A DNA stretch of 64,000 nucleotides from Gekko japonicus (lineage: Eukaryota): the NCBI RefSeq assembly GCF_001447785.1, contig NW_015165830.1:2434644-2498643 (forward strand), written 5' to 3'. Position 1 is the stretch's first letter, and each line of letters begins with the position of its first letter. Below, one piece after another: positions 39,001 through 42,000 of this stretch. Position numbers: made by a program.

Positions 39001-42000
39001 CTGGTGCTGGAGCAGGTATGCCTGGCCAGAGAGGAGCTAAGTCAAATCCCCCTGGAATACAGGAACTTGTCCAAGGTATTCAAGGAGGGGGAGGGGGACA
39101 AACTCCCCCCTCATAGGAACACTGACTGTGCTATTAAGATCTTGCCTGGCCACAAAATTCCCAAGGGGAAGCTGTATTCTATGAGCCCAGCCAGAAAGGA
39201 AAAGCTGTGAAAGTTCATTGATAAGAATTTGGCCCAGAGGTTCATCTGACTGACGGCCTCACCATTTGCCGCCCTTGTACTATTCCGCAAGGAGGAAGGG
39301 GGGTTGAGACTGTGTACCAACTACTGGGGTCTGAATGCTGTGTCAATGTCCAATGCCTACCCCCTCCCATTGATAAAAGATTTGTTGGCGGAGACCGCTC
39401 AGAGCTGCATCTTCACTGAGCCCGCTTTGCGGGGAGGGCGGGGTATAAATTTGATAATAAATAAATAAGTTAGATTTGAGGGATGCCCATATCCCACCCT
39501 GAGCCTGCTCTGGGATATAAATTAAATAAATAAATACCTTTGAGTACGCAGCCAGGAGCGGGACAAACATAAAACTGCTTTCAATACCCTGCTTGGACCA
39601 TTCGAATACCTGGTAATGCCATTTGGGCTAGCAGGGGCCTCTGGAGTGTTCATGAACTTGATTAATAAAGTGTTACATAAATAGTTGTTCAAGGGGGTCC
39701 TGGTTTATCTGGATATTTTGATTTATATGAAATACAAGGACTCACACACGCAGGTGGTCAGAGAAGTACTGAAAGCCCTCTATCAGAACTGGTTGTTTGT
39801 AAAGTTGTTCAAGTGTGAGTTCCATAAAGAAGAGTTGGACTTCCTGGAGTACCGAATCTCTGGGAAAGGACTGAGCATGGACCCCCACAAAAGCAAAGAT
39901 GTATTAGGGTGGGGCCCCCCTCAGACGAGGAGACAATTACATGCATTCCTCAGGTTCGCCAATTTCCACTGCCCCTTCATCCCAAATTTTGCCCAGGTAG
40001 CCCTACCCCTCACAGACTTGTTGAAAACAAAAGGGAAGGGGTTGGAGTCTAAAAAATCATGTTGTAAAGTTACAGTGGACCCCGGAGCAGTGTTCCCTCT
40101 GACCTGAGTTAGTGTGAGCTAGCTCACAGTTTTTTAGCCTCCAGCTCACTCATTTTGTCTTAGCTTAGGAAGGATGCCTCCAGAGCAAACTAATTCATGC
40201 AGTAGCCAAATCACTAGCTCACAACTTTAAATGCCAGTAGCTCACAAAGTAGAATTTGTGCTCACAAGATTCCACAGTTTAGAGGGAGCATTGCCCCAGA
40301 GCAGGGGTTATTTTGTAGAAAAAGAGCTAAGGGAACTCATTAGCATAACTCATTAGCATATGCCACACCCCCTGACATCACCGGAAGTGTGTCATAAGGC
40401 CACACACCCCGCCCCCAACGGTCCCGGCCGCCGGCGCTGGCCTTGCAGCTCCACTGCCGAGCCCCATGAGGGGCCCGGCGGTGGACCTGCAAGGCCGGCA
40501 GGAGTGCAAGGAAGCCCCGCGAAGGCCCTCCCTGGACCCAGGCAGGCAGGGGTGGGGAGAGGCAGGGAGGAAGCAACTTACCCTCCCTCTTCTCTTGCCT
40601 CCTCCTGGCTGAATGAGGGCTGGAAGCGGGGCGGCTGGAAGCAGGGGGCAGGGCTTCGTCATGTGCCCCGCCCCCCCGTACCTCACCTGGGGGAACTGCG
40701 ATCCTCCGCGATCCCCCCCGAAATGACCTCTGGATCCAACCATTCCATACACGGAATGCAGAGTTTTCCTGTGTGCCTCTTTATCCCTGCAGCCCCTTCC
40801 AACCCCTGTGGACTGGAAGGCTGGAGTAAGGACAAGGAAGTGAAAACACTCTCTCTCTCCTCTCGCGTAGCTCCACTGGAGAAAGAGGTTGATTTCATCC
40901 CCTTGTCCATCCTCACTCCAACCCAGCAACCCTCAGTGTGTTCCTCCACCTGGACCACACAGCCTTAGGAATGATCTTTCTGGGGGCCAGAAGGGGCTGC
41001 AGGAACACAGAGCATCACAGGGAAACTCAGATGTGGAGGGTTGCATGCATGGATGGCTGGACAGATCAAAATGCATGGAACCAACAAGAGTGAGGGGCCC
41101 GGCGGTGGACCTGCAAGGCCAGCGGGAATGCAAGGAAGCCCCGCGAAGGCCCTCCCTGGCCCCAGGCAGGCAGGGGTGGGGAGAGGCAGGGAGGAAGCAA
41201 CTTACCCTCCCTCTTCTCCTGCCTCCTCCTGGCTGAATGAGGGCCGGAAGCGGGGCGGCCTGAAGCAGGGGGCGGGGCTTCGTCATGTGCCCCCCCCCCG
41301 AAATGACCTCTGCCCCAGAGTACTAACAGGCTTTCAATGGATTAAAGGCTCTGTTCACCTCTGAACCAATCTTAGCCCACCCAGACAAAAATAAACCCTT
41401 TGTGGTGCAGATGGACACATCAGATGTGGCAAGGGGGGGGGGGGCGATACCGCAACAGGGGGGGGATGGGAAACTGCACCCCCTTGCCTATGTGTTGAGG
41501 AAATTCTCTGACACCAAGAGGAATTGGGTGGTTTGGGACAAAGAGGCCGCTGCCATTAAATTGGTCCTGACTATTTGGAGATATTGGTTGGAAGAGGCCT
41601 GGGTGCCATTTGAGGTCTGGACTGACCATAAAAATCTGGAGGCTTTATGCACCCCCAGCGCCTCAATGCTAAATCAGTTATGTTGGGCAGCATTTTTCTC
41701 AAAGTTTCAGTTTCCACTTATGTACCTTCCAGGGAAGTCTAATTTTCTTGCTGACACACTCCCGCGCCTCCCACAACATGCCAGTCAGAGGAAAGAAGTC
41801 ATTGACTCTACGTTCACCCCCACTCAAATGGGGGGGGGTGCTTACCCACCATTGGGCAAAGAAGGAGGGGGCCCTCAATCCTGAACCTTGGGTGGAAAAA
41901 TTTAAAGTGGCCTTCAGTGAAGCCGACAAAGAGGATGTGGAAAAGGAGGGCACTCTGCCACAAGGAGGGAATGGGTGCTGGTATTGCCAGCATATGTTGT

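What the first reader, a model, noticed from the sequence alone, without database searches (positions are those of the whole stretch)
40294..41320. Compound hAT element carrying a near-identical copy of DNA from 31 kb away (Pack-type transduplication)
Seen: between perfect 8-bp TSDs (ccccagag) lie a complete family-B unit (40302-40732), then 361 bp matching 9231-9590 with only two differences, then a second right end (41091-41312) joined at a TGA microhomology. The solo family member at 50043-50385 has no cargo. The two right ends differ from each other more than the cargo differs from its source, suggesting that two different family copies contributed. Inference: recent capture of host DNA by a vertebrate hAT element followed by a local hop, analogous to plant Pack-TIRs.
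Basis: partly seen in the sequence, partly recalled or inferred. Interest (0 to 1): 0.72.

Follow-up and report, generated by a model that had tools for sequence, protein, structure and literature searches.

The report
hAT MITE with templated filler DNA
A small non-autonomous hAT transposon carries a near-identical copy of DNA from 31 kb away plus a second copy of its own right half, most likely a scar of break repair, a kind of event already catalogued in animal genomes.

Summary
Between perfect 8-bp duplications (ccccagag) lie a complete family-B hAT MITE (40302-40732), a copy of 9229-9590 (99.4%: one substitution, one 1-bp indel) and a partial second right half (41094-41312). The junctions carry TG and TGA microhomology.

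New points:
- Junction 2 falls in the 4-nt loop of a 28-bp-stem hairpin inside the element. The solo copy's 84-bp deletion ends at the same place.
- 7 of the 10 differences between the two right halves are at CpG sites, so "two donor copies" is suggestive but not shown.
- The flanking octamer is also the right target duplication of an older 206-bp hAT MITE.
- The cargo shows no coding signal and folds as a long imperfect hairpin.

Best reading: double-strand-break repair with template switching ("gap filling") in an element already resident here. No hop is needed. This matches the animal Pack-TIRs of Tan et al. 2021 (370 cases, 208 of them hAT), so it is a new member of a known kind.

A compound hop is not excluded. 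Genome-wide copy number and the orthologous or allelic state could not be checked, because no collection holding this genome was open.

The parts
40080..40087 (.). Left target-site duplication (ccccggag) of the older family-A hAT MITE
   Evidence: matches 40294-40301 at 7 of 8, the difference being at a CpG
40088..40293 (+). Family-A 206-bp hAT MITE (termini CAGTGTTCCCTC ... GAGGGAGCATTG), one of 8 copies in the window
   Evidence: 6 of 8 copies have perfect 8-bp TSDs, this one 7 of 8, and one is decayed (3 of 8)
40294..40301 (.). Octamer ccccagag: right TSD of the family-A copy and also left TSD of the compound
40302..40732 (+). Complete family-B unit (431 bp, 64.5% G+C), left end CAGGGGTTATTTTG and right end CGAAATGACCTCTG. 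In my favoured model 40302-40469 is the old resident's left part and 40470-40732 is repair synthesis.
40436..40499 (+). Internal palindrome: stems 40436-40465 and 40470-40499 (28 pairs), loop ATGA at 40466-40469
   Evidence: DNA fold -35.9 kcal/mol, z = -4.7, 0 of 200 shuffles as stable. One search gives the loop letters.
40731..40732 (+). Junction 1: TG shared by the element's last two bases and source 9229-9230
40733..41090 (+). Cargo: 358 bp that can only come from 9231-9587 (363 bp with the two microhomologies)
41091..41093 (+). Junction 2: TGA shared by source 9588-9590 and the hairpin loop (40467-40469)
41094..41312 (+). B': second right half, running from the first base after the hairpin loop to the right terminus. 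It lacks about 37-45 bp between poly-C runs (equivalent to 40676-40712).
41313..41320 (.). Right TSD ccccagag
9229..9590 (+). Source (parental) copy. No family-B sequence in its flanks. It is bounded by a direct 7-mer GATCCAA (9231-9237 and 9589-9595) and folds as a long imperfect hairpin.
50043..50385 (-). Solo family-B copy (343 bp) with TSD ctggttat. It lacks the 84 bp equivalent to 40381-40464, a deletion whose right edge is at the same hairpin loop.

Best explanation
The compound is a repair scar in a non-autonomous hAT element, not a purpose-built cargo carrier.

A family-B MITE had inserted by ordinary transposition into the octamer ccccagag, which was already the right target duplication of an older hAT MITE. 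This lies inside a decayed Ty3/gypsy-like pol.

Later the element broke in the loop of its own 28-bp-stem hairpin (inferred). The steps I propose are:
1. The 3' end of the left half primed synthesis on a family-B template, from the loop to that template's right terminus (giving 40470-40732).
2. Synthesis went on for about 360 nt on DNA 31 kb upstream. It got there either by a switch at TG or because the template element lay beside 9231 on another chromatid or haplotype.
3. The new strand was annealed through TGA to the right side of the original break. That right side is B' and still carries the original right terminus and TSD.

The result is a partial duplication of the element with templated filler between the copies. 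This is the 'gap-filling' route to Pack-TIRs.

Shown: the anatomy, the identities, the microhomologies, the hairpin, and the coincidence of two breakpoints in its loop.
Inferred: the break, the order of events, in-place origin, and the identity of the template.
For: 1. Both junctions have microhomology (2 and 3 nt; joint chance 0.008 in 100,000 simulated joins).
2. The ambiguous TGA of junction 2 is 40467-40469, inside the ATGA loop of a hairpin with z = -4.7. The only other rearrangement seen in the family, the solo copy's 84-bp deletion, ends at the same loop. The chance of a second breakpoint within +-2 nt is about 5/431 = 0.012.
3. The first part of the 84 bp is shared with a related family at 2740-3126 (72.7% over 66 columns, E = 1e-6). 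The long form is therefore ancestral and the solo copy is a deletion.
4. The source has no family-B sequence in its flanks and no TSD-like footprint at 9231. It was copied, not moved.
5. The outer ends are flush with a perfect TSD, which is what a resident element leaves behind.
6. No second compound copy is in the window.
7. Polarised by the solo copy, 40470-40732 has 8 private changes (4 of 11 ancestral CpGs lost, all by transition). B' has 2, and cargo and source together have 1 substitution. This fits a right half copied from another, more decayed family member, with B' and the left part as the resident. The left part differs from solo at 4 of 79 and B' at 12 of 222.
8. Tan et al. 2021 (PMC8277862; sections 7, 8, 12 and 14 read) report for animals: 370 Pack-TIRs, 208 of them hAT, only four multicopy. 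59.8% of 281 unique cases are on the same chromosome as the parent, 67.6% have microhomology (median 2 bp), and 91 of 97 primate cases have the bare TE at the orthologous locus.
Against: - Junction 1 sits exactly at the element's last base. A random template switch would rarely do that. It needs either a template whose end was cut or run off, or a family-B copy beside 9231 that this assembly does not have.
- The statistical support for two templates is weak: 8 against 2, p = 0.11; non-CpG 3 of 196 against 1 of 351, p = 0.13; CpG columns 7 of 26 against 0 of 6, p = 0.30.
- The left part's 4 of 79 differences from solo do not differ significantly from either right half.
- 31 kb is beyond the <15 kb class that holds 57% of the published cases.
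- Nothing in the window excludes that the same repair event happened at another locus and the product then transposed here.
- The 7-mer GATCCAA at both edges of the source (chance about 0.004) is not explained by this model.
Confidence: 0.55

Rival explanations
1. One reading: the compound formed at another, probably nearby, family-B element by the same kind of template switching. Transposase then mobilised it as a unit, using B's left end and B's' right end and skipping the internal right end. This is FoSTeST-like or a macrotransposon hop. The hop created the ccccagag TSD.
For: - The TSD is perfect 8 of 8.
- Both outer termini are intact and match the solo copy's termini, 0 mismatches to the 14-nt end pattern.
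- The family has TSD-flanked copies 92-95% alike, so it was mobile not long ago.
- Two right halves 4.5% apart are natural if different elements contributed.
- hAT elements are known to hop locally (recalled).
- PMC8277862 section 9 proposes this route for multicopy Pack-TIRs.
Against: - It needs one more event than in-place repair, plus loss of the donor compound. No second compound is in the 64 kb.
- The source carries no element.
- The perfect TSD does not discriminate, because 16 bases at a few per cent divergence are expected to stay identical more often than not.
- Published multicopy cases were always distal to the parent (PMC8277862, section 8).
Confidence: 0.22
2. A single template, in place: break-induced or replicative template switching (MMBIR/FoSTeS) left the resident element at its last base, copied 9229-9590, and re-entered the same element or its sister copy at the hairpin loop. 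The two right halves were then identical at birth and all 10 differences arose since.
For: - 7 of the 10 differences are in CpG context, in a window with CpG o/e of 0.26.
- The non-CpG contrast with the cargo is not significant (p = 0.13).
- A transposase cut at the right end would give exactly the 3' end ...CTG that could prime on the TG at 9229-9230 (mechanism recalled).
Against: - The asymmetry is 8 against 2 private changes, with 4 against 0 CpG transitions, in two copies that would be the same age and lie side by side.
- Cargo and source kept 3 of 3 CpGs each.
- Overall 10 of 222 against 1 of 357, p = 4e-4.
Confidence: 0.1
3. Transposase-made composite: either alternative (sister-chromatid or two-element) transposition with aborted re-replication, as in maize Ac/fAc Composite Insertions, or 'end bypass' from elements that once flanked 9231-9590.
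For: - The architecture is TE termini enclosing a segmental copy, flanked by an 8-bp TSD, as described for Composite Insertions (10.1101/2020.08.10.245175; passages seen).
- Junction 1 is flush with the terminus, as expected if the cargo was the donor element's flank.
- The internal junction has microhomology.
Against: - The defining donor arrangement, an element beside the duplicated flank, is absent. There is no family-B sequence and no footprint at 9231 or 9590.
- It needs an extra loss or a recombinant haplotype.
Confidence: 0.06
4. Reverse direction or artefact: 9229-9590 is the derived copy, inserted from the compound, or the compound is a chimeric read or misassembly.
For: - The source unit is bounded by a direct 7-mer GATCCAA, which looks like a target duplication (chance about 0.004).
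- The window has one 13-N gap (6614-6626), so it is a scaffolded assembly.
Against: - The compound's cargo includes the left 7-mer and 2 nt of the right one. That fits copying from the 9.2-kb locus, flank included, not the reverse.
- Reverse copying would leave the origin of the cargo unexplained.
- Graph misjoins need long shared words, not 2-3 nt.
- The outer ends are bounded by a TSD that is independently confirmed as the family-A copy's own TSD.
Confidence: 0.05

Closest known systems
Animal Pack-TIRs formed by transposition-independent gap filling (Tan et al. 2021, Nat Commun, PMC8277862)
   Same: A non-autonomous TIR element (hAT, the commonest superfamily there) encloses a young, single, near-identical copy of non-TE DNA from the same chromosome. 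Microhomology of 2-3 nt lies at the breakpoints. One breakpoint is at an internal structure-prone site.
   Different: - The element is not interrupted with a small gap. About 266 bp of it is duplicated, so that a complete unit precedes the filler.
- One junction is exactly at the terminus, whereas the published breakpoints lean to the interior.
- The parent is 31 kb away; most published cases are under 15 kb.
- This case is not among the 370 rows of Supplementary Data 1. I read all four parts by eye and saw no row with about 31 kb spacing and a parent of about 360 bp, and no lizard rows.
Abortive gap repair and filler DNA in Ac/Ds and P elements (Rubin & Levy 1997; Engels et al. 1990; recalled, not read here. 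The latter is cited in PMC3014272, passage seen.)
   Same: Interrupted repair synthesis with short direct repeats at the junctions and templated filler from nearby DNA.
   Different: Those products are usually internal deletions. Here the net result is a gain. The break is placed by me at a hairpin loop rather than at the excision gap.
Maize Ac/fAc Composite Insertions (Su, Zuo & Peterson, bioRxiv 10.1101/2020.08.10.245175; Zhang et al. 2014 as cited there)
   Same: hAT termini enclose a segmental copy, with an 8-bp TSD and an internal end-joined junction.
   Different: Composite Insertions carry DNA that flanked the donor elements. No element lies beside the source here.
Lizard hAT (hobo_AC) elements that incorporate extraneous DNA and recombine (Novick et al. 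2010, PMC3014272; passages seen)
   Same: hAT families in a squamate genome with filler DNA and inter-element recombination. The same defining features are used: 8-bp TSD and YARNG termini.
   Different: Those are family-level, amplified structures of several kb. This is a single 1-kb locus with an identifiable parent. Whether family B is one of the families in that paper was not tested.

Membership tests
hAT superfamily, non-autonomous (MITE) | 8-bp target-site duplication | tested here: met
   2 of 2 family-B insertions: ccccagag x2 and ctggttat x2
hAT superfamily, non-autonomous (MITE) | Terminal motif YARNG and short terminal inverted repeats (feature as stated in PMC3014272) | tested here: met
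   The ends read CAGGG and, on the other strand, CAGAG. The pattern CAGRGGTNRTTTYG matched with 0 mismatches at 5 sites, all of them family-B termini (16 sites within 2 mismatches).
hAT superfamily, non-autonomous (MITE) | Mobilised by a hAT transposase, with a related autonomous element | not testable with these tools
   No transposase ORF is in the window and no library or genome of the host was open.
Pack-TIR (operational criteria of PMC8277862, Methods) | An internal sequence of 100-5000 bp flanked by two pieces of one TIR element, each covering at least 10 bp of a terminus | tested here: met
   358-363 bp lies between 40302-40732 (both termini) and 41094-41312 (right terminus).
Pack-TIR (operational criteria of PMC8277862, Methods) | Parental copy at least 90% identical, length ratio 80-120% | tested here: met
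   99.45% identity; 363 against 362 bp
Pack-TIR (operational criteria of PMC8277862, Methods) | Unique best parental hit in the genome | not testable with these tools
   There is one parent in the 64-kb window. The genome was not available.
Pack-TIR (operational criteria of PMC8277862, Methods) | No TE within 100 bp of the parental copy | tested here: inconclusive
   The flanks match no family-B sequence and no other in-window repeat. There was no TE library, and the parent itself looks like an old foldback unit.
Transduplication in the strict sense (capture of a gene fragment; Pack-MULE-like) | The cargo derives from a host gene | tested here: not met
   0 of 9 stop-to-stop ORFs of at least 40 aa over 9231-9590 match Pfam at E < 0.01; the best was 0.094 and spurious. 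Rfam gave 0 hits and there were 0 tRNAs. A non-coding exon or a regulatory element cannot be excluded.
Composite Insertion by alternative hAT transposition | The enclosed DNA flanked the donor element(s) | tested here: not met
   No family-B sequence lies beside 9229-9590 in this assembly.

The most novel reading that the evidence does not exclude
The hairpin inside family-B elements may be a recurrent, perhaps transposase- or nuclease-targeted, break site. That would make this MITE family a repeated collector of nearby DNA.

The exact re-use of another hAT MITE's target octamer may reflect end-directed ('homing') integration by hAT transposases beside resident hAT ends.

Together these would give a vertebrate MITE family with a built-in capture-and-spread cycle.
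Probability: 0.1. Interest if true: 0.55.

Novelty: new member of a known kind. Interest (0 to 1): 0.3.

Why it matters
If the in-place reading holds, this locus is a clean, very young example of how a DNA transposon duplicates nearby sequence without moving. The cargo differs from its parent by 1 substitution in 357 columns.

Unusually, all the marks are still legible: the break site in a hairpin loop, both microhomologies, the parent, and the original target duplication. That makes it a good teaching or test case for the gap-filling against FoSTeST question.

It does not open a new one. The phenomenon, its superfamily bias and its mechanism are already in print for animals.

Tried and rejected
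- Rfam (gathering thresholds) on the whole window gave 0 matches, and ARAGORN found 0 tRNAs. The cargo hairpin is no known RNA family.
- Pfam on 9 ORFs over the source gave nothing credible.
- I tested for an old tandem duplication at the source. TRF found only an unrelated 21-bp array at 9637-9678, and sensitive blastn found no 358-bp periodicity.
- I considered a cloning or ligation artefact, because the cargo starts at GGATCC and ends near GATC. I rejected it because the right junction does not preserve a GATC.
- I compared the hairpin's left arm with the two right arms: 32 against 33 matches of 46. This does not show which right half belongs with the left part.
- The left part against solo (4 of 79) does not differ significantly from either right half.
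- I read Supplementary Data 1 of PMC8277862 in full, by eye, to see whether this case is already listed. It was not found. The supplementary figures with the model drawings (docx/pdf) were not read.
- One protein search with the integrase ORF, done only to place the host. The best named relatives are Anolis carolinensis Gypsy-integrase-like proteins (48-58% identity), then frogs. The window is therefore from a non-mammalian vertebrate, probably a squamate, and I do not take it for human. Unnamed hits were not fetched or used.
Copy number of cargo, junctions and family B, and all orthologue or haplotype checks, stayed unchecked.
The N run at 6614-6626 was left alone.
- Complex prediction, structure tools and RNA models were not relevant.
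Full report
**1. The observation**

A blastn of 40200-41420 against the window gave:
- 40731-41093 = 9229-9590 at 99.45% (363 columns, one mismatch, one gap).
- 40467-40675 = 41091-41299 at 95.2% (10 mismatches in 209).
- 40713-40732 = 41293-41312 at 20 of 20.
- Matches of both parts of the first unit to the minus-strand solo copy at 50043-50385.

The raw sequence shows ccccagag at 40294-40301 and 41313-41320, and ctggttat on both sides of the solo copy.

The cargo differs from its source by A/G at 40991/9489 and one extra G near 41020.

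The second right half (B') lacks about 37-45 bp between two poly-C runs.

Within the window the cargo has exactly two copies.

**2. What the pieces are**

Family B has 8-bp TSDs in 2 of 2 insertions. Its termini are CAGGG and CAGAG, which fit the YARNG motif. Those are the two features used to define hAT in a lizard survey (PMC3014272, passage seen). No transposase is in the window, so the family is non-autonomous.

The compound lies inside a decayed Ty3/gypsy-like pol. Pfam found:
- A weak RVP_2 match at 38572-39210.
- An RVT_1 tail at 39685-40107.
- RT_RNaseH at 41327-41884.
- Integrase_H2C2 at 41673-42152.
- rve at 42125-42916.

That pol is interrupted here by two MITE insertions and is split over several frames elsewhere.

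The integrase ORF's best named relatives are Anolis carolinensis proteins (48-58% identity), then frogs. CpG o/e of the window is 0.26. I therefore take the host for a non-mammalian vertebrate, probably a squamate, and not for human.

**3.

(a) *The flanking octamer is not anonymous.* Directly left of the compound is a 206-bp hAT MITE of another family (family A, 40088-40293; 8 copies in the window). Of the 8 copies, 6 have perfect 8-bp TSDs, one is decayed, and this one has ccccggag / ccccagag. The family-B element therefore integrated into exactly the octamer that was already the family-A copy's right TSD, after that octamer had lost its CpG. This gives independent proof that the outer ends of the compound are bounded by a true transposase-made duplication.

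(b) *The complete unit contains a palindrome.* The stems are 40436-40465 and 40470-40499, and the loop is ATGA at 40466-40469. The DNA fold is -35.9 kcal/mol, z = -4.7, and 0 of 200 shuffles fold as well.

The TGA that junction 2 shares between cargo and element is 40467-40469, inside that loop. The solo copy's only structural difference, an 84-bp deletion, has its right edge at the same loop. The first part of those 84 bp is shared with a related family at 2740-3126, so the long form is ancestral.

Two independent rearrangements ending within the same 4-5 nt of a 431-bp element has a chance of about 0.012. This marks the hairpin loop as a break site.

(c) *The '5% against 0.5%' argument needs a CpG correction.*
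- Of the 10 differences between the two right halves, 7 are in CpG context.
- All columns: 10 of 222 against 1 of 357, p = 4e-4.
- Non-CpG columns: 3 of 196 against 1 of 351, p = 0.13.
- Polarised by the solo copy, 40470-40732 has 8 private changes and B' has 2 (binomial p = 0.11).
- Of 11 ancestral CpGs, the first copy lost 4 (all transitions) and B' lost 1 (a transversion). Cargo and source each kept 3 of 3.

So 'two templates' is the better bet, but it is not demonstrated.

(d) *The cargo is not visibly genic.*
- 0 of 9 ORFs match Pfam at E < 0.01.
- Rfam gave 0 hits and there were 0 tRNAs.
- The cargo folds as a long imperfect hairpin: arms 9263-9304/9481-9522 and 9322-9358/9376-9412, z = -4.2.
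- In the source it is bounded by a direct 7-mer GATCCAA, with a chance of about 0.004.

It may be an old foldback or MITE-like unit with its own TSD. The compound's copy includes the left 7-mer and 2 nt of the right one, which argues that copying went from 9.2 kb to 40 kb.

**4. Mechanism**

Both junctions carry microhomology: TG, 2 nt, and TGA, 3 nt. In 100,000 simulated joins of these same sequences, P(>=2) = 0.158 and P(>=3) = 0.053, joint 0.008.

The source has no family-B sequence and no excision footprint beside it. The DNA was therefore copied by template switching, not carried out by two flanking elements.

The simplest complete account runs as follows:
1. A resident family-B element, already flanked by ccccagag, broke in its hairpin loop.
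2. The left end primed on a family-B template from the loop to that template's right terminus.
3. Synthesis continued on 9229-9590.
4. The new strand annealed by TGA to the right side of the break, which is B'.

This explains four things at once: why B' starts at the loop, why the outer TSD is intact without a hop, why the two right halves can differ like any two family members while the cargo is nearly identical to its source, and why the source is nearby.

Its weak point is junction 1. It sits exactly at the template's last base, which calls for either a template that ended there (cut or run off) or a family-B copy beside 9231 on another chromatid or haplotype. The break, the order of events and the template are inferences.

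**5. Rivals**

This is not excluded. It needs one more event and the loss of the donor, and no second compound is in the window.
- *A single-template version* (all 10 differences arose later) fits the CpG bias. It fits poorly with the 8:2 and 4:0 asymmetries.
- *Alternative-transposition Composite Insertions* (10.1101/2020.08.10.245175, passages seen) share the architecture. They require an element beside the source, which is absent.
- *Reverse direction or misassembly* is unlikely for the reasons given under that rival.

**6. Comparison with what is known**

Tan et al. 2021 (PMC8277862; I read the abstract, sections 7, 8, 9, 12 and 14, and all of Supplementary Data 1) report:
- 370 Pack-TIRs in 100 animal genomes, 208 of them hAT, and only four multicopy.
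- 59.8% of 281 unique cases on the parent's chromosome.
- Microhomology (median 2 bp) in 67.6% of cases.
- Breakpoints skewed to internal fragile sites.
- The bare TE at the orthologous locus in 91 of 97 primate cases.

They conclude that single-copy cases arise by transposition-independent gap filling.

The present locus meets their testable criteria: flanking termini, at least 90% identity, and the length ratio. Uniqueness in the genome and TE-free parental flanks could not be fully tested.

It differs in three ways. It has a duplicated element half rather than a small gap, a junction at the very terminus, and a 31-kb distance to the parent. It is not among their 370 rows (read by eye), and no lizard is listed there.

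Incorporation of extraneous DNA and inter-element recombination in lizard hAT families is also in print (PMC3014272, passages seen). Abortive gap repair with filler DNA in Ac/Ds (Rubin & Levy 1997) is recalled, not read here.

**7. Verdict**

It is best read as a repair-made Pack-TIR-like structure, probably formed in place. It is a new member of a known kind, and interest is modest.

The hairpin-loop breakpoint and the re-use of another MITE's target octamer are the details worth keeping.

What stayed unchecked:
- Genome-wide copy number of the cargo, the junctions and family B.
- The orthologous or allelic state of both loci.
- Read support for the assembly.

None of these could be tested, because no collection with this genome was open.

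Noticed in passing
window 5184-5389, 16614-16819, 17785-17990, 21378-21570, 22896-23085, 24251-24457, 40088-40293, 43438-43630: A 206-bp hAT MITE family ('A', termini CAGTGTTCCCTC...GAGGGAGCATTG), 77-91% alike. 6 of 8 copies have perfect 8-bp TSDs. 7 of the 8 left-side octamers end in GAC (4), GAG (2) or AAC (1), which suggests a target preference.
   Followed up: partly
window 40080-40087, 40294-40301, 41313-41320: The same octamer occurs three times (ccccggag, ccccagag, ccccagag). The family-B element integrated exactly into the older family-A copy's right TSD. This is either a target hot spot or integration directed to a resident hAT end.
   Followed up: partly
window 9221-9600: The source of the cargo is bounded by a direct 7-mer GATCCAA (9231-9237 and 9589-9595; 12 of 17 if extended to CAACnnnnnnGATCCAA). 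The chance is about 0.004. It folds as a long imperfect hairpin (z = -4.2). It may be an old foldback or MITE-like unit with its own TSD; my model does not explain it.
   Followed up: partly
window 2740-3126: A relative of family B with ends CAGGGCTnTTTTTGTAGAAAAAG and three copies of the CTCATTAGCATA-type subterminal motif. There are three end-like motifs (2740 +, 2914 -, 3126 -) and no matching TSD, so it is probably two elements or a rearranged one.
   Followed up: partly
window about 36747-44851: A decayed Ty3/gypsy-like element hosts the finding. Direct repeats 36747-37227 and 44013-44762 (about 88% alike; the second is interrupted by a copy of a repeat also at 20230-20491) look like its LTRs. 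A further copy of the same repeat lies inverted at 31904-32369, 96.8% identical to 44385-44851.
   Followed up: no
window 34186-34722: An ORF with a clear reverse-transcriptase domain (RVT_1, E = 3.9e-23), presumably a LINE fragment.
   Followed up: no
window 21696-21940, 48286-48531, 53612-53856: Three copies of a 245-bp repeat, 94-95.5% alike, unclassified.
   Followed up: no
window 6614-6626: A run of 13 N, an assembly gap. It was left untouched.
   Followed up: no
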